From contig JARDVH010000121.1 of the NCBI GenBank assembly GCA_030324005.1, forward strand, positions 7,416,242 to 7,480,241: a stretch of 64,000 bases of DNA, in the 5' to 3' direction. The position numbers were made by a program, and so were the translations under genes. Below, in pieces: positions 1-58,410 of this stretch (position 1 is its first letter; every line of letters begins with the position of its first letter). The notes beneath the pieces were generated by a model, which saw only the letters and a list, made by a program, of their open reading frames with translations, was not told the DNA's origin and ran no database searches. This DNA is from Negaprion brevirostris. Taxonomy: Eukaryota.

Positions 1-455
1 GTTTTTGTTTGCATGTGTGGAATGTCATTGTTCACTACCATTAGCCTTTTTTTTTTGTTCTAATTCGTCATAACATTTGCATAAACCTTCCAAGTTGCCG
101 TCCGGATTTGAGTAAATGGTCTGTGCAAAATGTTATCCAAAAAAAAACAGATTTCTTGAACGTTGATTGATTCATCTCCTTGACTTTAAAGCAACGTTTA
201 TGTTTCTCAAATTCCAATGTTCATCTCTGTAGCAACTCACTTTCAAATAAAGCAAATATTGACAATTCACTTACTTGGGTACATCGACGGTTACCTTGGA
301 ACTGCGTCTTTGGCAGAAAAATTGAATGAAGCACTGGCATCTGATCCCACCATCCTGTGTTCAAATGTTTGAGTTACCGGTCAATAATTTCTCTTATTTG
401 TACCTGAAATCGAAATAAGATGCACCGTTTGTTTATTCCTATGTTAACTCGACAG

Positions 456-476
456 ATCTTGAGTCTGCGAAGAAAA
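456..476 (+). CDS. 21-nt phase-1 heptad micro-exon (xLESAKK)
   Basis: ttaactcgacag|ATCTTGAGTCTGCGAAGAAAA|gtaagt; consensus donor; same position in the repeat unit as its paralogues. Confidence 0.8.
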
Positions 477-742
477 GTAAGTGTATTGCTCCATTCGTCA
501 TTTCCTGATGATGAAAAGCTATTACTTTAGAATGGTCGTTAGCACATTTTTTGAGTGTTGCTGCTTAAAGTTTGTGACTAAACTGTTACATCATTCAGGC
601 TGCACAATGTGTCTTTGTTCGATTTACATTCTGTGCAATTGTCATAAAAGCTTCCCAATGTTTTTTCCCATTGAGTGTACAGCCACGTAAAATGCAATTC
701 CAAGTAAATTAATCTAGCCCGGATCTAATCGTTTTGGTTACA

Positions 743-1155
743 GATCATAGAACCCAACAGTGCAGAAAGAGGTCATTCGGCCCATCGAGTCTGTACTGAA
801 CACAATCCCAACCAGGCCCTACCCCCATATCCCTACATAATATGCCCACTAATCCACTCTAACCGACGCATCCCTGGACACTAAGGAACAATTTCTTAGC
901 ATGGCCAATCAACCTAACCCGCACATCTCTAGGCTGTGGGAGGAAAACGGAGTACCCGGAGGAAGCCCACGTAGACACGAGGAGAATGCTCAAACTCCTC
1001 ACAGACACTGACCCAAGCCGGGAATCGATCCCAGGAACCTGGAGCTGTGAAGCAGCAGTGATAACCACTGTGACACCGTGCCGCCTACCACTGCGCTACC
1101 GTGCCGCCCACCACTGTGCTACCGAGCCGCCCACCACTGTGCTGCCGTACCGCCC
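743..1155 (-). mobile_element. HE1-like tRNA-derived SINE with tandemly multiplied 5' end
   Basis: Minus strand has a tRNA-like head (...GGTGTCACAGTGGTTATCACTGCTGCTTCACAGCTCCAGG...GATCGATTCCCGGCTTGGGTCAGTGTCTGTG) and a CR1-like tail (GATGGGCCGAATGACCTCTTTCTGCACTG...TTCTATGATCT). Confidence 0.9.
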
Positions 1156-2012
1156 GGCAGAGTATGGGTACCTGGACACGGAATTACTTATGCATTTGAA
1201 AGCTCTCCGGTGTTTATCAATAAAACGAATATTATCTTGTGAATTAATTTTACCAAAAGAGATCAATTCACTTAAAAAAAATGCTTCTGTCATATTTTCC
1301 ATTAAATAACGCAAACACTCCAACGGACTTCTCGTGCTCTCCGCAGAACATTAATTTGCACATAATTTTGTCTCAGCAGAATATACATTTTAAAATGCAA
1401 TCGATAGGTTATAAGGGTGGCAAAGGTAGATGCAATATGACGTGGTCGAAAAGGACGTTGTACTGAATAACTAAAGGTTGACTAGTATTGCAAATTCGGA
1501 GATTATTGAATAAGATCTTTCAGGTAATGTTTTCGAATGCTGTTTTGATTGAGGTTTTTCATGTTTGGACGATAATGGTGGTCGAACATTTTCAGTATCG
1601 GCTCTTATATTCTAAGAATTTTAGCAAAACACTTTCAAAATGCCCTCCCGGTTTCAGCAAACGCTCGCACTCCAATGCTTTCCAAAAATAAAACACGACA
1701 GATTGGTGTATTGCTTACTCAATCACCTGTTTGAAATTAACACAGCGTATTTTTTTGTTTTTCATGGTCACAGTCGTCGAACCTGTAACTTCTAAAATTC
1801 ATATCAAACTGTCGGTAATTCAATTACCTGAGTAGTTTGATGGGGTGTCTGCAAATTTATTTATATTTTTCCTTAAACATTGAATGAAAAGCTGGCACCT
1901 GATTGCCCGATGCCTCCTCAAAATTTTGAATTTCCAGTCACTCAACTGTCTTGTTTGTGCATAAAATCGAAATGATTTATGATATTTAATTATTGCAATT
2001 TTATCCACACAG

Positions 2013-2033
2013 GCCTTACAAATACACAAAACG
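2013..2033 (+). CDS. 21-nt phase-1 heptad micro-exon (xLTNTQN)
   Basis: attttatccacacag|GCCTTACAAATACACAAAACG|gtcagt. Confidence 0.75.
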
Positions 2034-3439
2034 GTCAGTGTATTGCTCCATTCGCAATTTCCTCTTGATTACGGGCGTGATTTTGTGATGGTGAATAACA
2101 TCTTTTGAATCGTTGCCGCTTATTGACCGTGACAAATCTGTGATATTATCCCGCCTGCTCAACGTTTTCTTTTAAAAGAATGGACTATCTGTGCAACTCA
2201 AAGAAATGCTTTCCAACTTGTATATCCCAACCCGCTTGCAATCAAATAAAACAAAAATGATTTCCCGGCACATTGATTTACTTCTGTATTACTATGTTTG
2301 GGTATAAATACCTAGTTACCCGGATTCTTATGAACCACAGTGCTCTGCATATTTCTCAATTCAAATAATATTTTGTTTGTTAATTCGTTACACCAAAAGC
2401 GGCGAAAATCAGATTTTCCCGCATCTTAACCATCTCATTTGTTTGCTAGCACGTTCACATATATAATTCGACTTGTGTTCTCGTCGGAACAATATTTTGC
2501 ATCTATTTTTTTCTCAGCAAAAGAAAAATAAATTTTAATCTTCAAAAGACCCGTTTTAAGTTTCGCAGTGGTAGATGCAATATTATGTGTTTGAGAAGTA
2601 TTTTGTATTGAATAACTGTGTTGACGAGTATTTTCGAGCAATGCGATTCAGAACAAGTGCAGAGCTTATTGGGTAACATATTTCAAACGATGTTGTCGGC
2701 ATGTAGTGTTGATTGAGTTTTTTCTCGTATTTTTTTGGACTGCAATGTTTGTCGATTCTCTTCATTATCCAGAATGATGTGATCATAAACTCATAAGCAC
2801 GCTGACAAGTTACCGTCCCGAATTCGCCAAACACCGGCAGCTTAATTCTTTCCAAAAATGTCAGAAAAGCAAAGGAGCATGCAATATTACTTCGTTGATG
2901 ATAATTTGGATACTGCAACTTGAAATTAACAAGTATTTTAGAACAAACACACAGAACGAGTACAGAGCTTCTTGAACACCATCAAAAAATTGTGTCGACG
3001 TACAATGCTGAGCGATACATTTCGATTTCAGTGATTCACCTTAAAATTCGATGTTGAACTTATCATGCATTTAACAAAATTCTTGCACTCGAATTCAGCA
3101 AACGTCCACTGCACATTGCATTCCAAAATGACAGCTTTCATTGTTGTTTTCTGATTGTGCTCCTTGATTTTAATTAACTTGCTCTGTTTTTTTTTCCTTT
3201 TTGATCTCAATGGGGGAATCTGCACAGTCTGAATTTTACATCAAAATTCGCAAATACAGTTGCGTAGACATTTGAGTGGCTATGCCGAAATTGCAGGGAT
3301 TTTTTTCGGAAACATTTCATGAAGGGTTGCCCGATTTCTCGTCAAAATTGTTTTCATTCACCGACAGTCTTATGATTGGTACATTAAATCTCAGTGAGAT
3401 TAAAAAAAAACTTTAGCGATTTCACTTGTAATCCCACAG

Positions 3440-3463
3440 AACTTCCCAATAAAAAAAAACAAC
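3440..3463 (+). CDS. 24-nt variant of the heptad micro-exon (ELPNKKKQ), weak donor
   Basis: tgtaatcccacag|AACTTCCCAATAAAAAAAAACAAC|gtgacg; A-run expanded by 3 nt, frame kept. Confidence 0.5.
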
Positions 3464-4557
3464 GTGACGTGCGTTGCACGTACAACCATTTGCATTTGAT
3501 TTTGGCTTTTTTTGGTGAATGACGGCTGCTGAAAGGTCGGAATAAACCTATTATGTTAGGAAGCTTGACAAAGGTCATGCTGTCAGATTGTACAGCCTAT
3601 GCAACCGAAATGAAGAAAACAACATTTCCCAAATGTATATCCCATTTTGCTTGCAATTAAATAAAGTACACCCTTTGAATTCCTGCAACTTGATCTTCAA
3701 CAGGACCAACATCTTGAGAATTATGTAGTTGGGCACTGAGGCAATTATGAACCTCCGTGCTCTGCAGTATTTCTCAATTGAAATAATGCGTTGTTTGTTA
3801 ATTCGTTTCAATTGAAGGGGATACATTATCATTTGCCCACATTATATTAAATTTGTCATGTGTCTGCCGTTAACTTGATCACAATAATTGAAATTGTTTC
3901 TTGTCTTCCTGTCAGAAAATTAATTTGTACGTAATTTTCCTTCGACAAAAAAAAACGGCCAAATTGCAACTGATATTCTGTGAGCGCGTGAAACATCAAT
4001 TCTATATTAATTGGTCGATAGGTACTTTGAATACGATAACTTCAGATTGACAAAAGTAGCAATAAATTCAGATCAGTAATGAATGCAGAGCTAACTGATG
4101 CCTCCCTTTCACAGGACGGTAAAGGTACGCAGTGCAGACTGCGTGTTTGGACTGCAATCATTGTCGACTGCCTTCAGTGTTGCTATCAGAATTATGATAA
4201 ATTGAGTCATACCCTTCCATTATTCCCATCGGTTTCAGGAAAAGCCCGCTTATAGAAACATTGCACGATGACATATTGTTATATTCTTTACATATTCACT
4301 ACCGTATATTTAACGCACCATTTGTTTTCGTCATGCTGCCGCTGTTGTGTCTGTAAGAGCTGAAGTATCGCTAAAAAAAACTTGAGCGTTTGATTGTCTT
4401 CAAATGCTGATTTTGGCAGAAACGCTGATTGGAGCGCTGATATCTGATTGCCAGATTCATAGTCCAATTGTTGAATTGCGGGTCACTCTTCTCTCTTATT
4501 TATGCATGAAATCGAAGTTTGATGCAAAGTTTAACATATGCAATTTGAACCTCACAG

Positions 4558-4578
4558 AACTTAAGAAAACACAAAACG
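4558..4578 (+). CDS. 21-nt phase-1 heptad micro-exon (xLKKTQN)
   Basis: tttgaacctcacag|AACTTAAGAAAACACAAAACG|gtaggt. Confidence 0.8.
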
Positions 4579-5959
4579 GTAGGTGAATTGTACTATTCGT
4601 CATTTCACGTGATTATGAACTTATTTTGTGATAGTGAAAAACATGTTTTAAATGGAAGCTGCTTAAAGATCGCAACAAATCTATCGCTGGTAGGTAGCAT
4701 ATAACCAATGAATAACAACACTTTGTTTGAACTGGAAAAAAAACCCCTCAAATATTTATAGAGTTGCGCACTTGAAACTTAATGTTGGTCTATTGCTCGG
4801 ATTGCACAAGATGAATTAACATGCGCAAAAACGTAATTATGTGACCGAAACATGAGTAGAACAGATAAGAACAGAAATGGGAAAGAGGGCGTCTTGATGG
4901 ACGAATTTTATGATGAAACAATTGGTATGCATATAATCAGTACGGAACGCATGCATTTCATTTTCATCAGGCGGAGAAATAACATCTGTGAAAGTAGCTG
5001 AAATTAAAATCGTAACGCCATTGAGTAATGATCTGGTTTGCGCATCGCTGTCAATGCTTTTGCAACTTCTCTTCCGTAAATCGACCGCCATTCACTCCCG
5101 TCCAAGCTGGCGAGGGGTCGGATATTTTGAAATCCTTGCATTGCACTGACTCTCTCACGTATTAATTGAGCGACTCTCTGGAATCGTGTCGGAACACACA
5201 AAACAAGAACAAATGCAAATCTTAAGAAGGCTAGCTAGCAAGTGAAGCAACTCTTAAATANNNNNNNNNNNNNNNNNNNNNNNNNNNNNNNNNNNNNNNN
5301 NNNNNNNNNNNNNNNNNNNNNNNNNNNNNNNNNNNNNNNNNNNNNNNNNNNNNNNNNNNNTAAATATACAACATTTCCAGAGTCATGTACTGCCTCACAA
5401 ATTGCTGGCTATTAGAGTTGCTTAAACCAACTCGTTAAATGAACAATAATGGTCTGCAATGCAAACCATACAACGAATGAGTATTTCTAGATCTATTCAT
5501 GGGATGTGGTCATCGTTGATCATACCAATGTATATTGCTAAACTGAAATTGTCCTTTGTCGAACTGGCATTCTGGGTCACAGAAAATGGTTTTCAGGAGT
5601 TATGCATACGACTGGGTATGCAATCACATATAGCTCTGACGAGATAAGGAAGGCAGAATTTCTTCTCCAAAGGGCAATCACAGATTTTATGATAAACAAT
5701 AGTGTTTGAATGATCACCGTTAAACGTTGTGCCATTTTTTATTGAATATAGATTTGATAACTTGTATTGGTGTGATTCGACGTTTGCCCGCCGTGCTTAA
5801 CGTGGGGTCTCCTCCTTAGTTGTTTGTTGCCTTCCTTGAAAGAATATCAGAAATATATAAACGTGAAAATAAATCATCGAAAGTTTTTTTTTGCATTAAT
5901 AGCTATTGGGCGTTACGGTTATTCCCACAATTTGCTTGCTATCGATCAACAAGTTCTCC

Positions 5960-9018: not shown

Positions 9019-11665
9019 CTAACCATTTGCTTCACGCGATAAGGATATTAAAGGAACAAGATCGTCAGGGATCACCATCTCTGAAATAAAACAACAACCT
9101 AACAGTTACTTGATTGCTCAACATCAATCAGGCAGGGCAAATGATCGGGAATTAATGGAATTGTTGATACAAAAAAAAAATCTGGACCTTCCCTTCAAAA
9201 CGGTAGATGTCTCAAATTTCGAACGTGGAGAGGACTATCTGGCCATATACACATGTGAATAACAGAACACGTCTGATCAGCAGTACGGTCAACAAGTGAC
9301 ATACATAAAGATTGCTATTAACGATTGGGCATTTTGTTCGTTCCAGCCCCAGAGTCAGAAATAGTGATTCCAGAACTCAATTGAAGATAGCACACTTGGG
9401 GATGTTGTATATTCATACTAGAGCAGCGTTGGGAGTGTCGTTGTTTCTGTGGCTTATTGGGAGTTTCGCTTGCAGAACTTCAAAGAGCCACCAGCCTGTT
9501 ACGCAATTTAATGAGATAATTAATAAACTGGAAATACCCTGCTTTGTATTTCCACCTCTGTTTCAAAACGTAACATATCCTCATGAGCATTAAAAATATC
9601 GATACATTCATTCTCACTCGCCTTCATAGGTAACGAGTTCCAAAACCATATGACCATCTTAGTCAAAAAAAAATCCACATTTTAAATATGCAACATCTTA
9701 AATTGACATTGCGATCTCTCGTTGCATTTTCATGAAAAAAAAACTGATGTTTTCTCTGCAACCCGTAAACGGCCATGTTGAAGTTTCCGATTTCCGTCAC
9801 ATAACATCTATGCCGTTATTCTAAGAGTTGATATGAAACTCCTCAATTCAAAGTTCCCTCATGAGGCACACCGCTCTTTGTTGATAATATACAGACACAA
9901 CTCATCAGAGTACAATTATTGGCATGTTTCTTCAATTAAGGAAACAAATATTGTGCACCAGTGCTGGATTTCCAATCGGCCTCAACAGTGTCTTCTAAAC
10001 TGAAAAAAAAATCTTGTTGCATTGATATCAACGTTCCGGCCCAAAGGCAACACTCTTTCTGTTTTGCCTTTCATACGCGTGGATACCCAGATGTCCAGTT
10101 CCAGTGAATCTGTCTGCACAATTTCACCAGTTAGATAAGATTGTTTCAATACTTTTTTTGCACAAATTGGCAACTCCTCAAGTTTGCAATCCAATCTTTT
10201 ATACGTGAGACATATATTAATTGTCTAACCTGTCCAGATCATCAATGTTTGGTTATAAACGATCAGTCCGATCACCAGGGCACTCAATCGAGAACTCACC
10301 ATTATCATTTAGTGTTCTGTTTTCATTTCCAATGCTTTGATAACTCCATAATGAAATAATACATTTCCAATGTGTTGCACTCATCACAGTTGTAGCTCAG
10401 TGTTTCGTGTCAGAGATCCCCACAATGTCAGGGTTGTCGCCAAGGTTGAGTATTTAATTTCAGTTTGTGGCCATTTACTTCCGAGTGTTTTTCATTTCAA
10501 AAAAAAAGAAAAAAAAACATATTCAATATATTTGTCTTGCTCCATACAGAGGTGACAGCGTGCAAAAATGGAAAGGCATCTGTATCCATAATCTATTTTC
10601 ATTTTGAGGGTAGAATGGGAGATTCTGAACGCTTGTAACAAAGGATCTATCTGAAATGTCCAACGTAGTTGTTACATGTAAATTCATCTAATTCAGGTTA
10701 TGCATTAGCCGTGACAAGAGAATTGAAATTCGCAGGCGTTATTAATAATCGGTGCAACGCTGCTCATTTTGCAAATCGGTCACATGTTTAATGGACGAGA
10801 AGCAAAGAGTGCAAGCTTTGTTCAAAAACACACAGACGTGTCTGTTACGTTGCCTATTATCGAATAAGATGAGTAAGTTAGTCCACAGGTGTGCAACAAG
10901 GGATACAATGTGAACGCGAGGGGCAAAGACCTAAGTGGATTCAATCGAACGGAGAAGAAACGGTAGCGAAACATATTGCAAAATCAACAGATGAATGAGA
11001 TCGAACAGACAATTTATATTGGTTAGAGAGGCAGAAAAGTAGCTGAATTCTGGGACAGAAACGTTTTCCGTCATCCCATACACGAGAGAGAGAGAGAGCG
11101 ACAGACGAAAGGAGTGAGTGAGGGAAATAATTACCGGAAAATGTCCGCCCGAATAATTCTAACGGTCAGCAGAAATATAANNNNNNNNNNNTTTTTCTTG
11201 TGCTGTGTCTCGAGGTAATGCCAGTATTACGCTCAAACTCTATGTCGGCTTTCAAAGTATGCCCCGAGTAAAATTTCCGCACAGTTCTTTTTCACGTGTC
11301 TTTGTTATTCAAGGGCGTAAATCCTTGAGTGTTTTCTTGGATTTGCATTACTGGCGTTGAAGGAACTTCCCTTATTTTAGTGCAACCTGTAAGGGATGGT
11401 CAAGACGCTTGGCCTCACGAAGTAAAATGTATTGCTGTCATTTNNNNNNNNNNTTGCAACGAGCACGAAGACATCCCGGGCGAAACAGTTTTTTTTTCAT
11501 CTGATTAATTTGTTTTTGTTTTGGCATGTGGTTCGTGCAGGTTTATGCAAGAATCCAGCAATCATCAGGCCAACTCTTGCTGAACGCAATTCTACCAAAT
11601 TCTGGCAATTTATACGTGTATTCTTAAGAGTGCCTCTTCCGTAATAAATAGGTATAACTGCTATT
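9019..11665 (-). pseudogene. Decayed Ig-superfamily receptor gene, V(J)-C1-C1-TM-cyt (SIRP-like architecture)
   Basis: Minus-strand exon-like blocks with splice sites. 11665-11135: RINC...DVFVLVA..NDSNTFYFV (DxxxYxC-like, 11416-11442), TGCTKIREVPSTPV, T*KRTVRKFYS, LYFC, donor TCCG|gtaatt. 10650-10230: FCTLSPLYGARQIY*, YSTLATTLTL, **VQH, TM-like LSALVIGLIVY, donor ACAG|gttaga. 9080-9019: EMVIPDDLVPLISLSREANG*. Junctions are phase-1 compatible; many stops and frameshifts. Confidence 0.45.
9600..10200 (-). mobile_element. Decayed CR1 3' fragment
   Basis: Antisense CR1 3' motifs (gggtaacgagttccaaa..accatcttagtcaaaaaa; ggcctcaacagtgtcttc; ggcccaaaggcaacact). Confidence 0.5.
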
Positions 11666-13088: not shown

Positions 13089-13911
13089 TGTTTTATGACC
13101 GATTAAATTGGATACCCTAAATTAAATAACTCGCCATATTCAAATCAACGACGTTCAAGCCTCGGGCAAACTTGGTTAACTTCAAATATACAAAGACACA
13201 GAAACATGTCTGGACCTGTCCCATCAATCACCCATCCAAAAAAAAAATGCATTGAGACATAACATGAGATCATCACACCGCATTGTTATGCACCAGCCTA
13301 TCTTATGTACCCAGATAGGACAACACTTTCTTTCATCTGGAGTCCCGACCATTACCTTACTTGGCAACAGGTTATATTTAAGTAACTCCACGGAGATGGA
13401 AACATGAGGTCAGGCCCCTGTGTCCTATCCGTCAGGCGTCAAGAAACCCAATGGTATTGGAACCCCCCCCCTCGAGAACTCATTCATCAGAAGCCAGAAA
13501 AAGTTTCTGGAAAGGAAGGGGGGAAGGGAGGGAGGCAGCGGATAAATGTGCACATCCCGAATTGCCAGTAGGAAGAGTTGGCGAGGGAGATGCCCTTGTC
13601 CATCCGGAAGGCAGATGAGAGAAGGAAAGAAACAAGGAGGGACCACTGGAACTCACCTTCGTGATGACCGGCTAAATGGGCTCAGAGAATCGGTCGTACA
13701 GTTTAGCCAAAACAACTGTACGGGTAGAACACACACGTTTGGAATATCTTGTTATTTTCTTTGTGTAACAGAGGAGTTAATGATATTATGAACAAACGTA
13801 TTGAATATTTATTTGTGCTTGTCCATTGTCCATATTGCAAATAAGGGCACCAGGGTAAACCTTTGAGAAAGTAAAGTGATCATACGTATCTGAGGCGGAA
13901 TAGGCATAAAA
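13089..13911 (+). mobile_element. 5' LTR (~820 bp) of an LTR retroelement
   Basis: Begins TGTTTTATG and ends CATAAAA (terminal inverted repeat); immediately followed by a PBS-like TGGCACCCC and gag-like sequence. Confidence 0.6.
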
Positions 13912-13913
13912 TT

Positions 13914-13931
13914 TGGCACCCCAAACGATCC
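13914..13931 (+). promoter_or_regulatory. Putative primer-binding site (partial match to tRNA-Arg 3' end)
   Basis: TGGCACCCCAAACG two nt after the LTR end; the first 10 nt complement a ...TGGGGTGCCA tRNA end (tRNA identity from recall). Confidence 0.45.
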
Positions 13932-14199
13932 TTCAATAAGGACTGACACTTTGCACCAAGCTGGAACTTTCAACCCAATATTTTCCACGACTCCATCAAG
14001 CCTGAATTCAGAGGGCGAAATCTTCACGTGAAGGACAGTCTTAAGAAAGAGAAGTGCGAATGCTGATTCGACCTTAAAATCGGGCCTTGAAACTCGTGTC
14101 AGAAGCACCATGTGGACAAACTGTGGAATTAGAATTAAGATAGTCAAGGGAGTTTGGGTGAAAGTTACGGGAGGGAATTTGGTGTAAACCGGACCCCTG

Positions 14200-15900
14200 C
14201 CCTGATCCCTTCCTCATAACAACGTAACGAACCCCAAAAAAGAAATTATTATATTCAGTCATGGTGAATGGGACAAAATCCTTAGGACATATTTCACCCA
14301 TAAATGGCCCAAAAGTGTGCAGTACGGTGACGCCCTGAAACAGAACCTGAGAGCCACGAGAATACAATGATCGAGTCAAGCACATAAGGGACCGGGTTTG
14401 AGGACTCCGAAGCTTAGATAGATGATTGCTATCTCCAGTTCTCTGGAAGAGCTCCCTTGTAGAAAAGCGGAGATTACCCCTTTTTACTGAGACAGTGAGG
14501 TACAGGTGATCCAAATAAATCAGTATTGAATGAACAGTACCACGTGCATACTACAATTGAAAACAGAGGTAGGCACATGAGAGGAACGGAACAAGATTAA
14601 CATAATTCAAGTGAGAGACTTTGGGGCTCAATTTGACAAAGCCTACCAAAAGGCACAGCAATGCTATCCGTGAGAGGCCACGCTGCACCAGGCAGAGAAC
14701 GTTAAACGTAAATTCAGCGACCTGAAGTCTGCAGTAAGAGTTTTGCACCAAGCAGGAAAAGAAAGTACTGACCACGCAAAAGACCACTTCAAATGCTCAA
14801 GCAAGATTGAAAACTTAAAATCACAAATAACCATTAGAAGGGATCTTCCGTCTGCGTACGTCGACAAAACAGGGGATAGTGATCCAGGGGCAGTGGGGGG
14901 GAGGGGGGGGTATTTCAGAAGAGGATGTCTGCTATAATGTAACAGTTCGCGTAACGGCGGAGCCCGTTTTTTCCCGCTAATGGAAGCAACGGCAACATCC
15001 ACGCCAGCCCCCATCCCACAAAACCCAGTTTGGGCCCTTTTCCGTCCGCCTGCTCTGATTCCCATCCCGATGGCTCCAGTCACTAAACTAGTTTCCGTAT
15101 CAATGAATCCAGTCACCACCCGATGACAGGATGGATACAGCCAGAATGTGACTGATGTGTCTCCAAACATCATGGCGCAATTCTCAAGCATGCCTAAAAC
15201 GATTGGAGTATTGCAACCATCTCGGAATCCAACTGATCCCTTCGACCAGATCACCCAATTTAGTGTTTTGAACCGCCTAGACGAGGCAGAAGAGGTTACA
15301 TTTGTTCTCTCACATTGAATTCCTGTTACCCATTCCTTTCTACCTGAATGCTGGTTGTGGCAGTGCTTCCTGCGGCAGGCAGGCACTGCCCGTCACGAAG
15401 GCAGCCTTTCTGGCCGCCGTGGGCTACAATAGGATAACACACACACAAAAAAAGGATTGAACACTTGGCAACAAAAGAGGAAGAAGCCCCCTAAGACCTA
15501 CACTAATTGAATATGGAACCGATTTGTTGCGACTGTGGCCAATTCAACCAAGTCCAATTAAAACGCCAACCGCCGATCCACATGGATCCAAACCCTGACA
15601 CCATACGCCACCAAGAGGAATCGCAAAGCCTGTGGGAATTTTGAACCCCATGATACCATAAATATAGAAGCCTGGGCCCTTTGCAAATTAACTGACCAGT
15701 GGGACTAGGAAGACAGACAAACGGAGACCTGCACGTCCATAGAACGCAGAGAAATTAAACTGATCTACCCAGACAGTGCCCTGGTTTAGCGCAAACGAAG
15801 GGGGAGGTGGAATCAGGGAATTAGAAAACTCAGGAATCCCGCCACTATAAATCCCTGCCAATTATCGATATAGAGAACCACAGCTCCGCACTGACCCGCG
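14200..15900 (+). mobile_element. Decayed gag-like ORF of the LTR element, 3'-truncated
   Basis: Plus-strand pieces EWDKILRTYFTHKWP; coiled-coil KFSDLKSAVRVLHQAGKESTDHAKDHFKCSSKIENLKSQI; MNPVTTR*...DPFDQITQFSVLNRLDEAEEVTFVL resemble chondrichthyan LTR-element Gag; many stops; no adjacent pol or 3' LTR. Confidence 0.6.
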
Positions 15901-16399
15901 ATGCATGTGCCAAATGGATAACATGTGCAATACATCATTTGTTACGGCACTGTTGCTATCCTGTGCTGCAGGAAGTAACATTTTCGTTAGAAGATAGACT
16001 AGATGCATAAACAGGCCTTTGACCAATTTCAAGTTGTGGAATACAGATGGTCATAAGATTTATAACCTCCTTCAACGTCATAACTAATTTATGTATAGAG
16101 AATGAAACACTTTCGCTAAATTGTTAGAGGCAAATGAACCGCAGACAATTGCTACTGAAAAGGACAGAACAAGTTCGAAGAGTCATGCAGTTATGTTAAG
16201 TGGACGGGGAAAATAGGGCAACTGATGTTTATTGTGGTAAATTGAAAGTCCGCTGGCCTTTTTTTTTGATCGATGTCTGCAGAGTTCTGCTGTGATTGAC
16301 AGAGATGGCCTTATTTTTTATAATTCAAGTAAAATGTGTCATCCATTCATTTCGTGCAATTAATACAACAAAAGGAAAGATCAAGTAAGGGACTGGTTT

Positions 16400-20577: not shown

Positions 20578-21560
20578 CGTACAAAGAACAAAGACTATAA
20601 TAGCACAGGAACAGGCAGTTCGACCTTCCAAGCCTGCACCGACATTGGTGCTCGACTTTCGTAAAAATTCCTACCCTTCCAGGGACATTATCCCTCCATT
20701 CCCACCTATCCAAGTATTTTTTCAAGAGTCCTCTTAAAATTCACTATCGTATCTCCGTCCTCTACCTCCTCCATCAGCGAGTTCCAGGCACCCAACACCC
20801 TTCGTGTGAAAAAAAAACATGCCTCTGTACATTTCCTTGAAACTTGCAACTCACACAAAAAAACTATGCCCAGGCTAATTGATTCCTCCCCCCAGGAAAA
20901 CGCTTCGCTCGATTCACAATATCCATTTCCCTCAAAATCGCATAGACCTCCGTCGTCCCAGTGAGAATCAACAATTTTTCTCCAACCTCTCCTCATAACT
21001 AATGTCCTTTGTAGCAGGCAGCATCCTGATATTTTTTTTTATGTACCGTCTCCAAAGACTCCACATCCCTCTGATAGTGTAACGATCAGAATTGAACATT
21101 ATATTTCAAGTACGGCCTAACTGAGTTTCTATCAATTTGCAACATAATTTGCCAGTTTTTTTTTAACTCAATGCTCCAGCCGATGAAAACAACCATCCCG
21201 AATGCCATCTTATCTAACTTATACATCTACACTGCCAATTTCAGTGACCTGTGCACCTGTACACCCTGATACACTTGCCCATTTATAATCTTAAAGGTTT
21301 TGCTATTCACTGTATATTTCCAATCTGTATTCGAACTTCCAAAATGCATTATCTCACATTTGTCCGGATTAAATTCTATCTGCGATATTTTCGCCCAAGT
21401 CTCCAACCGATCTATATCCTGTTGTTTCCTCTGATGGTACACATCGCTGTCTGCAAATTCACCAGCCTCTGTGTCGTCTGCAAACTTACTGATAAAACCG
21501 GTTACATTTTCCTCCAAGTCATTACAAGCAACACAGGTCCCAGCGCAGATCCCTGAGGAA
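20578..21560 (-). mobile_element. CR1 LINE 3' ~1 kb
   Basis: Tail acaaagaacaaag; ORF 21227-21565(-) NDLEENVTGFISKFADDT...QQDIDRLETWAK..FNPDKCEIMHFG. Confidence 0.92.
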
Positions 21561-21829
21561 GTCAATTGTAAAAAATATCAAGCCTCAATTTAAAGTCAAA
21601 CAATTGCATTTGATAGTAAACACACTAGCTTTCGTGGCCTTTCCCTTCGTCAGGTGAGTGGGTGGGATTATCATCGGTTCAGACTCGTTGAGCCGAATGG
21701 CCTCCTTCTGCACTGTACAATGCAATGATTCAATGTATTGCCCCAAAATAAATCAACTGTCTTTATAAATGTATTTTCTTTTAATGTACCCATTGTAAAT
21801 CTTTAGTTATGTGAATAACTCGATCACTG

Positions 21830-22440
21830 GTGTTGTTTCTTCATCATTTATCACTAGCAATGCTGTACAGTTACACCACTGACATGATTTGTAGCCCCAT
21901 GTGCACATAGGTTGATTGCGTCTTCACCTGTGAATGCTCTGTCTGCGAAATCTGCACTTGTTTCGACATTGGCTTCTGCATAACATCCGTCTTATATTCC
22001 AAGCACTATCAGTCCTTCTGTACTATTTTCCGTCATGTCCCTGCTGATTTCTACACGCTTTGCTCATGACAAAATAAAGTTTGCCATTTGAACCTCCTGC
22101 ATCAGAAAGCTCTTTCAATGTTCCTGCTTCTAAAAACTGCTTTCTTGTGTGTGGTCTGTGGACGATTATTTTTCTCATCATGATGAGTGGTTCTTAAACA
22201 CAAATTGGCCATATATCACAGACTTGTGCATTTGCATATCGATGCATAGCTGTAGCAACTGATTCTACTTGGGCGCTGTAGTATCCTATTGGCATTAATC
22301 TGCCTCCGTGTTGTTGAGCCACAACTGCAGTTTGCATTCCCTCATACTCCTGGCCTAAATTGTGAAACTGTTTAGTGAATCTTGGCAAACCAAATGCCCA
22401 ATCCTTCACCATGGCTGATGTTGAATCTTCTTTTTGCTTT
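21830..22440 (-). mobile_element. Retrovirus-like/LTR pol fragment (RT connection / RNase H-like region)
   Basis: ORF 22194-22412(-) AFGLPRFTKQFHNLGQEYEGMQTAVVAQQHGGRLMPIGYYSAQVESVATAM matches the ALGLPD..KPF.L...AVL.Q.HG...PIAYYS..LD.VA consensus of ERV-type pol. Confidence 0.75.
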
Positions 22441-25470: not shown

Positions 25471-26134
25471 CGGCCTCCAGCGGCCCTAGTTTAAAGCTAA
25501 AAATCCCGATTGTCAACGACTATCACACAGCCTGAAAAACGGCATCTGTACAAAATTGCATTTTAACGTTCTTGCGGGATATATATGATTTCAAAAAAAA
25601 AATGCACAGGTCTCTCTTCACAGATACTGACAGGACTGATGGATTTATCCCATATTTTCGTTTGTCTTCTCTTTTTAAAAAAAAACAATTCTCAGTCTTC
25701 CTGTTGCTGAGACACAGAACAACTGATTACCCCTCAAAACAATCAAATTTCCATTTTCACTTCTTTATAGTGGAGGGTTTTTTTTGAAACTTTTGTGGAT
25801 ATCTCATTTCCATCACTACGTGGATGGATTTTCAGATGATTGCTCAAATCATTGTGGATATTTACTTTTCTTCGTGATAGTTTTAAATACATTACATTTA
25901 TACTTTGGATTTTATTGGGCGCACCCTCAAAGGCGTTATGTCCACCAAAGTCGTATGTTACTGTAATTTCTCGGAAGTCGAAAAACAAAGAGATAATGAA
26001 AACATCTTAACCTTACAAAATATTCTGATGAAAAATGCAATACATTCTCAGCAACTTACCAATCAATCGACAAAATTGAATTTTCTGATTTGCTTTTCTA
26101 TCGTTTGTTTGATTGTGATGTTTCCACCACCTAG

Positions 26135-26155
26135 AACTGAAGAAGCGCACTGATG
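26135..26155 (+). CDS. 21-nt heptad micro-exon, type A (ELKKRTD)
   Basis: gatgtttccaccacctag|AACTGAAGAAGCGCACTGATG|gtaagg. Confidence 0.8.
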
Positions 26156-26264
26156 GTAAGGCTGATTTAAACTCAACATTTATTTGCCTGAAATTAATAT
26201 TGCCTTTTTATTGGCAACAAAGATTTCTGCAATGTCAATCTATATTGCTATCTACTGTGTCGTC

Positions 26265-26550
26265 CGTGGCAAGGTGGCACAGCGGGTAGAACTGCTGCCT
26301 CACTGCAAAAGGGACACAAATTCGTTTCTGAATTCGGGTGAAGGCCTGTGTGAAGTTACACATTCTTCCAGTGACCGTGTGGAATTTCTCCGGGTGCTCC
26401 GGTTTGTACTCAATGTTCCGGTGAGGTAGATTGGCAATAGTATTTTGTCCGTTAGTGTCAGAGGAATTGACATGGTAAATCCTTGGGGCTACGGTGATAC
26501 CGAGATTTATCTGCGCATGGCCTTGTACTAATTTCATGATACTACATGTC
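26265..26550 (+). mobile_element. Decayed tRNA SINE downstream of exon A (co-duplicated at ~40150, 47480, 55880, 58520)
   Basis: ggcaaggtggcacagcgggtagaactgctgcctcac..tgtgtgaagttacacattctt..ccgggtgctccggttt. Confidence 0.75.
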
Positions 26551-27710
26551 ATAAAGTTGGAAGTGTCTAAATATACAGCAGAATTAAACTGCCAATCAGT
26601 TATTCCTACAGAGACCAGAGAATAAAGCTAATTAAGGCAGAGGATAAGACTCTCCGGCCCTTCCAAGCCTGCAACTACTTTGCCACCCGACAGATCTAAA
26701 ACCATTTACCCTTCCAGGAACTATATAGCTCTATTCCCATCATATTCATTGATCTGACTGCGAATTCCAGGCACCCACTACCCGCTCTTAAAAAAATCTC
26801 GAACTTCCAATGTTGGGGCAAAAAAAACGCTGACAAAAATAATTACACAGAAGCTGTGGCAGGTTTGTCAGACTGACCAATTCGCAAATGCATCAACACA
26901 AAAGTTTAAAAGGTGTAAATAACAAAGGATTGTGGAACTGACGAATGGATTTTGAAAAAAAAACTTTCACCTCGGAGTGGATGGACAGTAATTGGAAAAA
27001 GAGTCAACATTCTTCATTTATTTTCTTCAAACACGTCCATAAATGTTCTCAGCACAGATCAATTGCAGAGGAATTAATATGCCGCCGCTTAACGAGGGGA
27101 CTTCGTTACACACTGAAATCACAATCTGGAAATTCTGATTGCTTGTCTTCCTTTCAGAGAGTCGACATTCTGGAGTTCCCTCGAATTAGCGCTTATCTCT
27201 GAACTGATGTTGTCACTTTTGATTATTTATAATGCAGGATTAATTGTGCTGCTCTTGGTTCAACATTCTCGCAAACATGGTGTTCCCGTCAGCAGTGAAA
27301 GACTACACTGCCTCTCAGATGCAACACAGCGTACTTAATAAGGGATTGCAATTCAATTCATCAGGGTGATGTAAATGCCAGAAAATCTGACATGTCATAC
27401 TGACATCGGTCATTTTATCCCTGTTGAAATTGTGTTGATCATATCATGATAGCACTAATGATGCTATGACGTAAGATTGAACGGGGAACAACGCCATGTG
27501 ACGTGTCAATAAACAATCCCTTATCAATGTGATGCAATCGCATTGTGCTGGATAAAAAAAAAAATACTGTTATGAACCATGCCGCTTGAAGCCCTGCCAT
27601 TTAGCTTTACCTTCGTTCTTCAAAGTTCAGTCGAGGATTAAGATTTTCCGTCAATGGATTCAGTTTGATTCGCTTAGAAATGTTCTTCTTAATTCTCTTC
27701 TTCCTCACAG

Positions 27711-27731
27711 ACCTGACGAAGTGCAAAAGTG
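27711..27731 (+). CDS. 21-nt heptad micro-exon, type B (DLTKCKS)
   Basis: ttaattctcttcttcctcacag|ACCTGACGAAGTGCAAAAGTG|gtaagg; strong polypyrimidine tract. Confidence 0.82.
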
Positions 27732-27750
27732 GTAAGGAAATACTAAAATG

Positions 27751-27787
27751 TATTATTATTATTATTATTGTTGTTGTTGTTGTTATT
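27751..27787. repeat. (TAT)n(TGT)n microsatellite
   Basis: tattattattattattattgttgttgttgttgttatt; absent from paralogues at ~41660 and ~50955. Confidence 0.9.
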
Positions 27788-30700
27788 AAATGAAATCGGG
27801 GCGACAGAACGGTGGAACGTTCTCCCATCATATAGAATGACATGATATTTCTTCTGCACACAACTATTGACAATATGTTTTTTTTTATTGCATTAATACC
27901 AATATCGCTATGATTTTGGCAGAATGTTGACTTGATACATGAGTGGAACAAAACTGAATGGAGGCCTGTACATCATTTGGAGAATGCAAATACATTGAAT
28001 TGTATACAATGATCTGAAACACATATTTATAATCATAGAGAACTACAACAGACAGCAGAAAAATTCGTACATTGACAGACAAATTCACAAATTGACGTGC
28101 AAACTGAAGGACATAGATGAAAAACTCATTGAGTCAGCTCAAAAGTCTGTTAAGGACAGAGCGACAGAAACATATTCATCATTGAGCAAGAGAACACAAA
28201 ATGTGCTAGCACAGTTTGATAGAACTCGGAACAGGGAGTCCGAAGCTGCTGCTGAACAACATGTGTTGCACAGTAGAAATTCACGTGGACAGCTTCCTTA
28301 GTTGGCGAACAACTATTCTTGTCAGGGGTAACACAACACGAAATTATCTAGGGTGATAATAGAAATTAATGGGCAATGTTAATATATTGAAGAAATCTGG
28401 GCAGAATATTTGATAGAATTTTACATAAATGCTCCTCATATTCATCAAGTAAACTCACGTGTTTTACATCATTGTGCTCAGGTAACAAAACATTTTAATT
28501 AACACATAGAACACATAATAACTTCATTCGCACTTTTAAGAAAAAGTTTGCTTTCAATGTGAATGAATATTCATGTAATACTGGTTAGGATATTAAATAG
28601 CATCACTGATGTTTCATATACTCCAAGTTCTCAGGTTGGGCATATATTTTGTTTTTTTTTCTGACCAGGGTAAATCAGCCCCCTTAAAGTGATTTTCCAG
28701 CCACGTTTAAACAGAACGTTCTAGGCTTAAGGCAGTTCTGACAATTTCTCGACGCAGGTTGAGAAAGTAGATCCTCACGAATGGTGCACAGTCGTGAGCA
28801 CATCTGCTGCTAAGTCTTCATGATTCAATAGCCTGTGATTGTTTCAAACTTTTTGGCTTCAATAGGCCGTGACTGTCTGAAACTCCACAGTAAAAAGTCT
28901 GACAACACCAGGTTTAAGTCCAACCGATTTATTGGACTTAATCCTGGTGTTGGCAGACATTTTGCTGTGTTTACCCCAGTCCAACGCCGGTATATCCACA
29001 TCAAACTCCACAGCCACTTTACCGCTAGAAACGTCACGGCATCCAAAAATCAGTGTGACATCCATTGACTGTCATCCTTCGGATCCGCCATAAATGACAT
29101 ATTTTGCACTGGACTTCGCCTGATTCCTTCTCTCAGACCTTAACGTCTTGAGTCACAGTGGCAAAAGTTTAAGATCCCGTAAGCATCAATCTGAGGATCA
29201 ACAGAACACGAGAGAGCCTCCAATAGTCTCAGATCTCAGTCTAGGGATCGGATTAGGAAACACTGAAAAACACATTTATTTCAAACTATTAAAATAACAC
29301 ACCTTATCTGGTAACAATTAAGACACTAACACCGACCACTCAACAAAACTAACTTTCTCCTATTACAATATGCACATAGATTGTATTACGTCCTTTTATA
29401 TCTTTAACCTCTTCGGAAGTGATATTCAAAGATTCATGTAGCATTGCCACAATCGAAAATCCATATTTTCTGTTTCAGCTGCTTCGAGTTGATCGGAAAC
29501 ATGCCAGGAATGTGACTTCCGTTTGCATAATGTGTTTTGCGTCAAACACTATATGCACAAACCCACATGATCATAGTTATTAAAACAATGACTGAGAAAA
29601 TGATGGCTTTTTTTTGTCGTTTGTTGCAATTTTGGAAGCTCCTATGTACGTGATACCTGATTTGTGTAAACATTGCACAAAAATCTTCATGGATTGGTTA
29701 GGATGCCTGCCTGTAATGAAGATTGGAAATCATTATCTGGTGACAAATTGGTTGTGCGCATTGCATTTCCAGAGATTATTCCAATAGATAACATTTTGCA
29801 GCAAATCGGACAGTATAGCAATGCGTATTTTTATTCGACGAGAGATCAACTGCCGAAAGAAATACAGTTAGCTCAAGGCTCATTCATACATCGATGTTGC
29901 ACAAGAAATTATTCGAGTGCTTAGATTTGAAACGATTTAAAATAGCTGCGGACCATCCACAATTATCGAATGCGTTTAAAACGGTGGCATGCACTTTAAA
30001 ATGCATGTTGAGGGCATATAGTCAAGATTACCCCCAAGCATTGCAAGGATGAATGCGCCAAATGAATCGACACATTGTTTTTTTTTCAGTTGAATAATTG
30101 TTTCCTCATGACGTATAAGAACTACTTAATTTGATTAAGCCGATTTTGCTGAGTTAGCGTTCAGACACTGCATTAATGGACGAAGTGTCAAACTTTAACG
30201 GGGGACAACCTGGGACGACTGTGTTGGCGAGACGGTATTTAAAAATAATGAAACAAATACGCAGACACACACTCAGAAATTCTTAGGTTTCCTCGTGTGG
30301 AGAAATTAATAGTTTGATTAAAATTCGTCGTTGAACGTTTACCAAACAAGAGAATAGGTGAACGTAGGATTAGCTAAGTGGCCGGTTTTAGTGTCTTAAT
30401 TGTGGTGCGTTATGATGATTATCTGTAGTATGGAATCAAATAAAAAAAATAAAAAAATAGATGAGCAAGGAACATAATTTGACAATCAGCCTGTCTTCAA
30501 AGAGCACTCTTGATTCAAGCCAAAATGATGAAACAATATTTTGATTGGGAAGGAAAGTAGAAATAACGTGATAATTGTTGCAATTCAGAAGTAAAAACGA
30601 CAAAAAAAACGGAAGTTGATGCTTCTCATATTAGATCGAATTACCTGAAAGTTATCCGAAGTTATGCAACATTAGTGAGTTGCCATCCACAGGAAAAGAC

Positions 30701-35556: not shown

Positions 35557-37454
35557 ATGCAGAGAATTAATCGACAATTGAGCAACAATTGTATAGATTT
35601 AATCAATTTGGCTTCGTACTGGTTCACGAGGATAAATAGCGTTTATTCACCTTCAGGGGTTATAAATGAAAACCTCAATCAAATGTTACTTAGCTTTGGA
35701 AGACAGTTACGACTCTAACGCAATACAGGTACCAATCGAGGAAAATGTTCAAAGCTGGCTAAGACTGTTGAGGAGACAGGATGTCTGTACGCTGAAGCAA
35801 GTAAGGAATGAGAGACATGGAGATGGAAATTTAACTGTTGTGCCTGAGTTGCTCAAAACACCTGAGAAAAGAAGTCGTTTTGTAAACAACAGCTGGTCAT
35901 AATCGTGAAAAGACATGTGGAGGGATCAGCAGGCATATGTGAATAAGCAGGTGAAAAACGAAGTAATGTGTACAACTCTGAAGAACACCTCACTGGTAAT
36001 CATGACTAACTTAAAATATATCGAGTGCATGGCGACGTTTGTGATAAATATACTTAAAGCAAATTTTGTAAATTCTCCTGGATCCTTTTACAAAGCGCAT
36101 TTTTCTTTCACCGAAAAACATTGAATTCGGTGCCATCAAACTCAAAATTTGATTTTCAAAATTTTGCCCAGGTACTAACATCTAAAGATAGAAGCAGGAG
36201 TAGGTCATTGGATCAATCAGCTCCGCTTCCGTTGAACTTGATTATGAGTGATCATCAAATCCAGCATCGTGATCCTCCTTCCACCCATAACCCTTCAGCC
36301 CCAACAGCGATATATAAATTCTTCTTGAAATCAGTCAGGCCTTTGGCCTTAGCTGTATTCTGTGGCAAAGATTTGCACAGCATACAACACACTCTGTGTG
36401 AAGAAATTGTCTCTCACTTTCACTTTCAAAGGCATACAGATTATTCGCACATTTGTCCCCCAGTTCCGGACTCCTCACTATTGGCAATGTTTTATTTTCC
36501 TGAATCTACGCTATATGACGCAGTTTTTTTTTAATGTTTCGATGAGTTCCACTCAAACTCCTTTCAACTCCAATGGATATAATCCGAACCGATTTATTCT
36601 CTGCTCATATGGCAGCCCTCGCATCCACGGGATCAGCCGTGCACATCTTCACTACGTGTTCTGCATTAGGGACATCCTCCCTCAGATAGAAGAAAAACAA
36701 ACTGCACGCAATAAACCAGGTGTCGCCTCGAAAGGTCCAGTTTGCCAATAGAAAATGCTGCAGTCTTCAACAATTTACAAAATCTCAGAAGCATCTAAAA
36801 TGATAATCTGCCAACAGATGCATATGTAGAATATCTGTCTAATTGTGCTTTAGAATTATATATGATCTCGAAGCTTGAGCTGTACTTCTCTCTTCACAGA
36901 TTCTTGCAAACATGTTGTGATTATGCCACATTGCATTTGTTTCTCCTACTTTTCCTCCTTTTTTTAAACAAAATAGTCTATTTCCAGGATTTCAGCTGTT
37001 GTGACCCAAAATAATTTGTTACCCTGCATGATATCCTCAATTATCCATGGTACTAGGGGACACACATGAGAATAATGGGTATACCTTTTAGAATAGAATT
37101 GAGAACAAATATCTTCACCAAGAGCGTGTTGACTGTTGTGCAACCATTTGCCACAAAATGTATCTGAGGCCAAACGTCGGACTGATTTCAAGAAGAATTT
37201 AGATATCGTTCTTGGAGTTGAAGTGTTCAAAGAACAAAGAACAAAAACAGCCCAGAAAACAGGCCCTTCGGCCCAACGAGCGCGCGCCGCCATTTTAACA
37301 TTACCAGTCCCACCTCCACCAACGACCCTTATCTATGCTTATGGCATTCCACATTGAGGGAAAACTAATTTCGGGGCAATTTATTATTGGCTTTCTCCAA
37401 CAGTTTTTTTAGTAATACTAATTTCCTTCAATTCCTCCTTCTCGATGGGTGCAT

Positions 37455-39770: not shown

Positions 39771-40014
39771 TGTCCTCTCAATTCGATGTTTTTGAGTGGG
39801 GACGGAATCAATAATGATGGAGGGATTATAGAAGTATCTACATGGACGCATCTTGAAATGCCTGATTATATTCTGATGAACAAAATATTCTGATGAAAAA
39901 TGTAAAGCATTCTCAGCAACTTTCCAATCAATCGACAGAATTGATTTTTCTAATTTACTTTCTAATTTACTTAATTACTGTCGTTTGGGTTATTGTGATG
40001 TTTCCAACACCTAG

Positions 40015-40035
40015 ACTTGAAAAAGAAAACTGAAG
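40015..40035 (+). CDS. 21-nt heptad micro-exon, type A (DLKKKTE)
   Basis: gatgtttccaacacctag|ACTTGAAAAAGAAAACTGAAG|gtaagg. Confidence 0.8.
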
Positions 40036-41629: not shown

Positions 41630-41650
41630 AACTGGCAAAATGCCAAACTG
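41630..41650 (+). CDS. 21-nt heptad micro-exon, type B (ELAKCQT)
   Basis: ttaattctcttcttcctcacag|AACTGGCAAAATGCCAAACTG|gtaagg. Confidence 0.82.
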
Positions 41651-44600: not shown

Positions 44601-45051
44601 AATCAGAGCTAGTGGATAAACAAAGATGATACTGAACTTGACCTTCCCCACATTAGTTGAATTATGAGAAACTTATCAGATTTGTTAACAGTTATCGAGT
44701 TGTCATCCACAGTGGAATAAGCTTGACCCAAAGGATTTTGTTTTTGCAAATACCTGGAGTTACAGATGAAAATTAAATGGAATATATAAAAAATGTGCTT
44801 GTGGTACTTGCAGAGAATTAATCTACAGTTGTGCAACAATTGTATAGATTTAATCAATTTGGTTTCGCACTGGTTCAGGGGGATAAGTGGCGTTTATTTG
44901 CCTTCAGGGGTGAAAAAGGAAAAGCTCAATCAAATGCTACCTAGCTTTGGAAGATAATTACAACTCTAACGCAATAAAGAAACGAATCGAGGAAGATGTG
45001 CAAAGCTGGCTAAGACTGAAGAGGAAACAGGTTGTCTCTACGCTGAAGCAA

Positions 45052-47363: not shown

Positions 47364-47384
47364 ATCTGAAAAAGAGCGCTGGAG
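47364..47384 (+). CDS. 21-nt heptad micro-exon, type A (DLKKSAG)
   Basis: gttgccctcgatcacctag|ATCTGAAAAAGAGCGCTGGAG|gtaagg. Confidence 0.8.
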
Positions 47385-50927: not shown

Positions 50928-50948
50928 ATCTCACAAAGTGCCAAAGTG
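50928..50948 (+). CDS. 21-nt heptad micro-exon, type B (DLTKCQS)
   Basis: tctttgattcctcacag|ATCTCACAAAGTGCCAAAGTG|gtaagt. Confidence 0.82.
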
Positions 50949-53205: not shown

Positions 53206-53391
53206 TTCGTACTTGTGCAGAAGGATAAATAGCATTTCTTCGCCTGAGGAGTTGTAACGGAAAACCTCAGTAAAATGCTACCTAGCTCTGGAAGGCAATT
53301 ACAACGCTAAGACAGCAAAAACACGAATCGAGAAGTTGTGTAAAGCTGGCTAAGGCTGAAGAGGAGAAAGATTGTCTGTACGCTGATGCAA

Positions 53392-55748: not shown

Positions 55749-55769
55749 ACCTGAAAAAGTGTCATGAAG
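55749..55769 (+). CDS. 21-nt heptad micro-exon, type A (DLKKCHE)
   Basis: gttgccctcgatgacctag|ACCTGAAAAAGTGTCATGAAG|gtaagg. Confidence 0.8.
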
Positions 55770-58389: not shown

Positions 58390-58410
58390 AGCACAAAAAG
58401 AGTGCTGATG
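58390..58410 (+). pseudogene. Inactivated type A micro-exon (EHKKSAD; donor GT to TT)
   Basis: ccatcacctag|AGCACAAAAAGAGTGCTGATG|ttatgg; both the Leu and the donor are lost. Confidence 0.7.

What the first reader, a model, noticed from the sequence alone, without database searches (positions are those of the whole stretch)
1..4690. Tandem repeat whose unit is one intron plus one heptad exon
Four highly diverged ~1.1-1.5 kb units each keep a frame-preserving exon at the same position. The third unit's A-run grew by exactly 3 nt (24 nt), keeping frame. This suggests selection for frame and a mechanism (unequal crossover) that adds heptads one at a time. These units show no evident homology to the introns of the 26-58 kb exons, implying independent expansion events.
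Basis: partly seen in the sequence, partly recalled or inferred. Interest (0 to 1): 0.7.

Follow-up and report, generated by a model that had tools for sequence, protein, structure and literature searches.

The report
Shark heptad mini-exon tandem array
A shark gene appears to have lengthened a coiled-coil protein by copying a 21-base exon together with its intron, a process already described for chicken BG immune genes; the odd third copy looks broken rather than frame-preserving.

Summary
The array is real. Four head-to-tail units (core about 1.15 kb, 65-76% identical in local alignments) each carry a positionally homologous exon-like segment on the + strand. Three are intact 21-nt exons (456, 2013, 4558). 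Seven more intact 21-nt exons lie at 26-56 kb. All ten share one open frame (phase 1) and an invariant Leu.

The headline detail fails. Unit 3 gained a net 4 nt, not 3, and its homologous GT now reads TG. The 24-nt reading needs a weak, shifted GT, so unit 3 is probably a dead copy, like those at 10550 and 58390.

The introns show no homology to the downstream families, but the exon cores resemble them. Serial rounds of duplication fit better than independent origins.

The closest known system is the chicken BG/butyrophilin heptad-exon tail, which expands by unequal crossing-over. Membership is untested, because no Ig, transmembrane or B30.2 exon was found in the window. The hydrophobic register also differs: Leu is at codon 2 here, against codons 4 and 7 in BG. 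The DNA is shark-like. The units are now too diverged to suggest current expansion.

The parts
10..4685 (+). Tandem array, family A: four exon copies, three complete and two partial introns; core unit about 1.15 kb; left end outside the window
456..476 (+). Intact 21-nt exon, copy A1 (the most divergent intact core)
739..1146 (.). Dispersed-repeat insertion in the first full intron, absent from the other units; SINE-like (the label, and its resemblance to shark HE1, are recalled)
   Evidence: gap in profile tiling; 10 hits elsewhere; 23-nt tandem tail at 1064-1155
2013..2033 (+). Intact 21-nt exon, copy A2
2600..3134 (+). Internal tandem duplication in the second full intron (2600-2864 vs 2904-3134, 70%)
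3440..3464 (+). Degenerate copy A3: net +4 nt, homologous donor reads TG, only a weak shifted GT after 24 nt, Pro at codon 3; probable pseudo-exon
4558..4578 (+). Intact 21-nt exon, copy A4; array homology ends about 110 nt downstream
10550..10570 (+). Degenerate exon copy with a GA donor, weakly related to family C
26135..26155 (+). Intact 21-nt exon, family B
27711..27731 (+). Intact 21-nt exon, family C (Cys at codon 5)
40015..40035 (+). Intact 21-nt exon, family B
41630..41650 (+). Intact 21-nt exon, family C
47364..47384 (+). Intact 21-nt exon, family B
50928..50948 (+). Intact 21-nt exon, family C
55749..55769 (+). Intact 21-nt exon, family B; last intact exon found in the window
58390..58410 (+). 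Degenerate family-B copy: TT in place of the donor, Leu replaced by His

Best explanation
The array is an old intragenic tandem duplication inside a large shark gene whose coiled-coil region is encoded by symmetric phase-1 exons of 21 nt, one heptad each. A segment of about 1.15 kb (the exon, about 1 kb of upstream intron and about 110 nt of downstream intron) was copied head to tail at least four times, most likely by unequal crossing-over. Because the exon is symmetric and a multiple of three, each gain or loss adds or removes one heptad without disturbing the frame, so copies are born and die cheaply. Three copies here stayed spliceable and the third died. A later round downstream used a larger two-exon unit (B+C) and also left a dead copy. 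The likely product is a membrane protein with a long helical tail or stalk of the BG/butyrophilin kind (my estimate for that family: about 0.45). SHOWN: unit homology, exon positions, splice sites, shared open frame, invariant Leu, the +4 change and donor loss in copy 3. INFERRED: transcription and splicing, that all exons belong to one gene, the coiled coil, the crossing-over mechanism, the gene family.
For: Strong acceptor-donor pairs on the + strand peak at 21 nt: 8 pairs, at most 3 at any other length from 10 to 60, 0 at 21 on the minus strand, at most 4 at any length in 100 shuffles. Phase 1 is open in 10 of 10 intact exons; phases 0 and 2 each have a stop in 5 of 10. No downstream pairing of intact exons makes a stop at the split codon. 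Leu at codon 2 in 10 of 10, with four synonymous codons; Lys at codon 4 in 8 of 10; small or Cys residues common at codon 5. Pooled pN is below pS in all three families (0.36/0.57, 0.28/0.41, 0.14/0.53). Intronic indels are frequent, and only 20 of 128 are multiples of three. A rough neutral simulation gives P of about 0.02, 0.02 and 0.04 for the observed survival in families A, B and C. The B+C pair was duplicated together (26015-30488 vs 39880-44366, 78-80%). [quoted passage not shown]
Against: No transcript evidence. No Ig, B30.2/SPRY or lectin exon among 148 of 175 open frames of 75 aa or more scanned against Pfam, and no convincing transmembrane or terminal exon, so the gene is not identified. 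Within family A alone phase 0 is also open in 3 of 3 intact copies; phase 1 rests on the match to families B and C. Family-A exons are less alike (0.54) than their flanks (0.67-0.81), and copy A1 does not score on the cross-family profile. Only one core position is reliably hydrophobic (codon 5: 5 of 10), so the coiled coil is weak. The simulation assumes star trees and uses a Leu criterion chosen after seeing the data; pN/pS rests on 12 non-independent pairs. Twelve N gaps could hide exons or join pieces wrongly. 3 of 13 copies are degenerate, so a decaying gene is not excluded.
Confidence: 0.72

Rival explanations
1. One reading: all four copies are live, and copy 3 is spliced as a 24-nt (8-residue) exon through the shifted GT, which selection kept because it restores frame after the +4 change.
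For: A GT does lie 24 nt after the acceptor and the frame is open. BG genes have occasional 24-nt exons, and the first BG1 tail exon is spliced as 21 or 24 nt. The acceptor CAG is retained.
Against: The donor scores -1.2 against 2.6-7.4 for the ten intact exons and loses to three nearby GTs. The shifted GT is an automatic by-product of the exon's terminal G meeting the new T. Pro follows the Leu. Copy 3 has the longest branch (0.40 against 0.21-0.36) and the weakest flank scores. The run length may be mis-called.
Confidence: 0.1
2. The exons encode an extracellular, possibly disulfide-linked coiled-coil neck or stalk of a gene unrelated to butyrophilins (for example a type II lectin-like or scavenger-type receptor), so the heptad-exon design arose independently of BG.
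For: Leu sits at codon 2 and the second core position at codon 5, whereas BG uses codons 4 and 7 (PMC5938342, section 12). Cys is at codon 5 in 4 of 10 exons; core Cys suits an oxidising compartment (own knowledge).
Against: BG tails also carry a conserved Cys. A single exon of another length upstream could reset the register. Searches for other families with 21-nt heptad exons gave none. No lectin exon was found in the window. This rival differs from the best explanation only in gene family, not in how the array arose.
Confidence: 0.3
3. The whole gene is a pseudogene, and the intact-looking exons are simply the copies that have not yet been hit.
For: 3 of 13 copies are degenerate. The introns hold many dispersed repeats. 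Family-A exons diverge faster than their flanks.
Against: 10 of 13 copies keep AG, GT, 21 nt, an open frame and Leu although their flanks are only 67-84% identical; neutral expectation about 2e-5 under rough assumptions. Donors rank at the 97.6-99.9th percentile. Very recent death would look the same.
Confidence: 0.1
4. The units are a tandemly amplified transposon or satellite, and the exon-like signals are chance.
For: No repeat library (Dfam, Repbase) could be searched with these tools.
Against: No dispersed copy in the other 59 kb, while true repeats recur many times. No terminal inverted repeats (longest 28 nt at 71%). No Pfam hit in the array's open frames and no Rfam hit. The same exon signature recurs in two families with unrelated introns.
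Confidence: 0.03

Closest known systems
Chicken BG genes (butyrophilin family, MHC B locus): cytoplasmic tail of 21-nt heptad exons
   Same: Many 21-nt exons, each one heptad, with a split first codon of 1+2 nt (PMC5938342). Exon number changes by expansion of multi-exon repeats: three-exon in BG0, four-exon in BG1, attributed to unequal crossing-over (PMC5043582). Skipped, read-through and occasional 24-nt exons occur.
   Different: The hydrophobic codons are 4 and 7 in BG but 2 and (weakly) 5 here. Exon spacing here is 1.1 to more than 12 kb; BG genes are compact (own knowledge; intron 1 is 113-354 nt). A one-exon unit is preserved here with its whole intron. IgV and transmembrane exons were not seen. 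The host is a cartilaginous fish.
Mammalian and other jawed-vertebrate butyrophilins (BTN3A, BTN2A and relatives)
   Same: Several very short 'heptad' exons between the transmembrane and B30.2 domains (PMC6790196). Butyrophilins are reported in cartilaginous fishes, and heptad number varies between species (PMC12841164).
   Different: They have only a few heptads, against at least 10 intact ones in this window alone. No B30.2 exon was found here.
Tandem exon duplication in general
   Same: Duplication of a symmetric exon with its flanking intron (general knowledge; PMC9741552 seen as a search listing only).
   Different: Here the copies appear to be additive units of a repeat protein rather than mutually exclusive alternatives (inferred, not shown).

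Membership tests
BG / butyrophilin family | Run of 21-nt exons, one heptad each | tested here: met
   10 intact 21-nt exons; length peak far above shuffles
BG / butyrophilin family | Phase-1 exons with a split first codon | tested here: met
   Phase 1 is the only frame open in all ten; BG split codon described
BG / butyrophilin family | Hydrophobic residues at codons 4 and 7 of the exon (described for chicken BG8 and BG13) | tested here: not met
   Codon 4: 0 of 10 hydrophobic; codon 7: 0 of 10; codon 2: 10 of 10 against PMC5938342. The register of shark butyrophilins themselves could not be obtained.
BG / butyrophilin family | Extracellular IgV (with or without IgC) exon upstream | not testable with these tools
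   None found in the window; the gene continues left of position 1, and no vertebrate genome collection was available
BG / butyrophilin family | Transmembrane exon before the heptads | not testable with these tools
   No convincing candidate among strong + strand donors; it would lie upstream of the window
Butyrophilin (not BG) | C-terminal B30.2/PRY-SPRY exon | tested here: inconclusive
   No SPRY/PRY hit in 148 of 175 open frames; the gene end may lie beyond 64000 or in a gap
BG / butyrophilin family | Protein-level homology to known members | not testable with these tools
   The exons give 7 residues each, below the 40-residue minimum of the protein search
BG genes | Exon copy-number variation between haplotypes | not testable with these tools
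   One haplotype only
Transposon or satellite | Dispersed copies, terminal repeats or element open frames | tested here: not met
   within this window only, no repeat library searched

The most novel reading that the evidence does not exclude
Sharks evolved, independently of chicken BG genes, a gene built from 21-nt one-heptad exons in a different register, and this locus preserves several ages of the process side by side: an ancient one-exon unit, a younger two-exon unit, and dead copies of each family. It would be a convergent case of exon-by-exon tuning of coiled-coil length in a receptor family not yet described.
Probability: 0.3. Interest if true: 0.6.

Novelty: new variant of a known kind. 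Interest (0 to 1): 0.35.

Why it matters
BG genes with long heptad-exon tails are described from chickens. My searches found no paper describing such an array in a cartilaginous fish; the library lacks most subscription papers. If this gene is butyrophilin-related, the long-tail design is either old or recurrent in jawed vertebrates. If it is not, the design evolved twice. The large introns keep the duplication units readable, which shows that birth and death of single exons, not a frame-saving 3-nt indel, sets the tail length. The mechanism itself is already known, which limits the surprise.

Tried and rejected
(1) Identifying the gene by protein search was not possible: the exons give 7 residues each, below the tool's minimum. 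Gene identity stays open.
(2) Pfam scan of 148 of 175 open frames of 75 aa or more; the 27 left out were 26 frames that overlap N gaps and one simple-repeat frame at 10931-11158. Three weak hits, all below their cut-offs: RVT_1 at 21230-21577 minus, EGF_FBN_1st, Pentapeptide_4.
(3) Rfam: 0 matches. Tandem Repeats Finder does not see the array because its longest period is 500.
(4) The multiple-alignment identity table is invalid for rows with unit 4 (overlapping slices aligned to themselves); I ignored those rows. In the phase table the row 10551 is off by one; the copy starts at 10550.
(5) A four-copy tree is nearly star-like (internal branch 0.035, support 70), so the order of duplication cannot be read.
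(6) A 21-nt look-alike at 35780, with similar donors at 45051 and 53391, was rejected as an exon: purine-rich acceptor, and it lies in the arm of an inverted-repeat element.
(7) A scan for a terminal exon or heptad exons of other lengths found nothing above minus-strand background beyond the 13 copies.
(8) Dating: a per-lineage distance of about 0.2 at the epaulette-shark rate of 7e-10 per generation (PMC10587355, passages) gives about 3e8 generations. That cannot be literal; I take it only to mean 'very old'.
(9) The supplement of PMC12841164 held no readable sequences; 2 of 5 pages are pictures, and the supplement store gave no answer. Shark butyrophilin accessions there, and BG alignments in supplements I did not open, may bear on the register question.
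(10) Splice-site scores use approximate vertebrate frequencies from my recall, not MaxEntScan.
(11) Orthologous loci in other sharks stayed unchecked: no vertebrate DNA collection was available, and no contig collection was scanned.
Full report
Setting. The window is vertebrate genomic DNA, about 39% GC, with twelve N gaps. An open frame from a retroelement fragment (52525-52809, minus; 'Penelope-like' is my recalled label) finds 7 proteins among 41 candidates. Six are named, and all six are from sharks (Mustelus, Scyliorhinus, Heptranchias) at 64-72% identity. I take the host to be a cartilaginous fish and went no further.

The array. Self-comparison shows homology between blocks across 1-4690. 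Local alignments between units score well above 30 shuffles each wherever the units overlap, at 65-76% identity; global alignments of the shared segment give 54-64%. A 1165-position profile built from three units tiles the region: 10-455 (last part of a unit), 457-738 plus 1147-2012, 2014-2901 plus 2904-3439, 3445-4557 and 4560-4685. The core unit is therefore about 1.15 kb. The first full intron is longer because of a dispersed repeat at 739-1146, and the second because of an internal duplication. Homology stops about 110 nt after the fourth exon. The left end lies outside the window, so four copies is a minimum. The unit has no dispersed copy in the rest of the window, no terminal inverted repeat and no Pfam or Rfam match. 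No repeat library could be searched.

The exons. Strong acceptor-donor pairs on the + strand peak sharply at 21 nt: 8 pairs, against at most 3 at any other length from 10 to 60, none at 21 on the minus strand, and at most 4 at any length in 100 shuffles. Ten intact exons were found (456, 2013, 4558, 26135, 27711, 40015, 41630, 47364, 50928, 55749) and three degenerate copies (3440, 10550, 58390). Phase 1 is open in 10 of 10; each other phase has a stop in 5 of 10. Counting the split codon as codon 1, codon 2 is Leu in all ten with four different codons, codon 4 is Lys in 8, and codon 5 is Cys in 4 and otherwise small or basic. The split codon gives mostly Asp or Glu and never a stop. This reads as one heptad per exon, with Leu at position a and a weakly filled d (inference). 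Against it: phase 0 is also open in the three intact family-A copies, family-A exons are less alike than their flanks, and copy 456 is atypical.

Unit 3. The conserved intron motif starts 25 nt after the acceptor in three units and 29 nt after it in unit 3, and both alignments open a 4-nt gap. The position of the original GT now reads TG. A 24-nt exon needs the GT formed by the exon's last G, which scores -1.2 (85th percentile, 4 of 9 consensus matches) against 2.6-7.4 for the intact exons. Better GTs lie at 29, 75 and 96 nt; the first shifts the frame and the last includes a stop. The copy has Pro at codon 3 and the longest branch in the tree. Its A-run is 9 nt, where A/T runs show an unexplained spike, so the length may be mis-called. 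I judge it a dead copy; a live 24-nt exon is possible (about 0.1), since BG genes have such exons.

Selection. Length alone says little in family A: flank indel rates give a 0.42-0.61 chance per pair of no indel in 21 nt. Taking AG, GT, length, open frame and Leu together, a rough neutral simulation gives P of 0.022 (3 of 4, A), 0.021 (4 of 5, B) and 0.036 (3 of 3, C); the copy at 10550 was not counted in any family. Star trees and the after-the-fact Leu criterion make this optimistic. pN is below pS in each family, on few sites.

Relation to the 26-58 kb exons. The flanks fall into three families, with between-family z-scores of at most 5; 10550 is a distant relative of family C (z 7-8 to 41630). 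But a core-only profile trained on two families ranks 8 of 10 exons of the remaining family in the top 1% of all 18-mers. The families are either descendants of an older duplication whose introns have diverged beyond recognition, or are shaped by one protein constraint; these data cannot separate the two. Downstream the duplicated unit held two exons, B and C, and some copies are 78-88% identical, so that round is younger.

Mechanism. A symmetric 21-nt exon can be gained, lost or skipped without frame damage. Unequal crossing-over between units adds one heptad (family A) or two (B+C); copies that lose a donor drop out silently. At 60-70% identity the family-A units are poor substrates for further unequal exchange (own knowledge), and the star-like tree shows no recent homogenisation. 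The process here looks historical.

Comparison. Chicken BG tails are encoded by 13-36 exons of 21 or sometimes 24 nt (PMC4046983; passages and the first part of section 8). BG1 alleles vary from 13 to 21 exons through a four-exon repeat, probably by unequal crossing-over, and BG0 has a three-exon repeat (PMC5043582; passages). In BG the split codon is 1+2 nt, and the hydrophobic codons are the fourth and last (PMC5938342; passages and the second part of section 12). Butyrophilins have a few heptad exons before B30.2 (PMC6790196 and PMC8813856; passages) and are reported in cartilaginous fishes (PMC12841164; passages and supplement text). This locus works like a BG tail. It is not filed as a member: the register test fails against chicken BG, and the Ig, transmembrane and B30.2 exons could not be seen. 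Searches for a described shark counterpart or for other 21-nt heptad-exon families found none (listings only; 40 of 54 results shown).

Verdict. A real and well-preserved example of exon-by-exon coiled-coil expansion, with a known precedent. The most striking detail in the finding is wrong. The remaining interest lies in the shark host, the different register and the unknown gene. Interest 0.35; new variant of a known kind.

Noticed in passing
window, whole: A/T homopolymer lengths spike at 9 (48 runs, against 18 of 8 and 13 of 10; none of 12 or more). Either a base-calling or assembly cap or an unusual mutational equilibrium.
   Followed up: partly
window 25900-60800: Large nested tandem duplications of 3-14 kb carry the B and C exons as a two-exon unit; identities 68-88%.
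   Followed up: partly
window 10550-10570 and 58390-58410: Two further dead exon copies, with GA and TT in place of the donor.
   Followed up: yes
window about 35700-37230, 45000-47000, 53300-55400: Three copies of an element with long inverted arms (76-84% complementary); possibly a non-autonomous DNA transposon. One arm holds a 21-nt exon look-alike.
   Followed up: partly
window about 13400-16000 (+) and 22200-22440 (-): Broken retrovirus-like remnants (gag-like and RNase H-like by eye, from recall; no Pfam hit), interrupted by stops.
   Followed up: no
window 52432-53306 (-): Retroelement fragment with an endonuclease-like frame; its closest named relatives are shark proteins.
   Followed up: partly
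window 61000-64000: CpG observed/expected rises to 0.8-1.0, with strong + strand donors at 61585 and 61815; possibly the start of another transcript.
   Followed up: no
window 4689: A strong + strand donor sits right at the array's right boundary, with no open phase-1 acceptor upstream.
   Followed up: no
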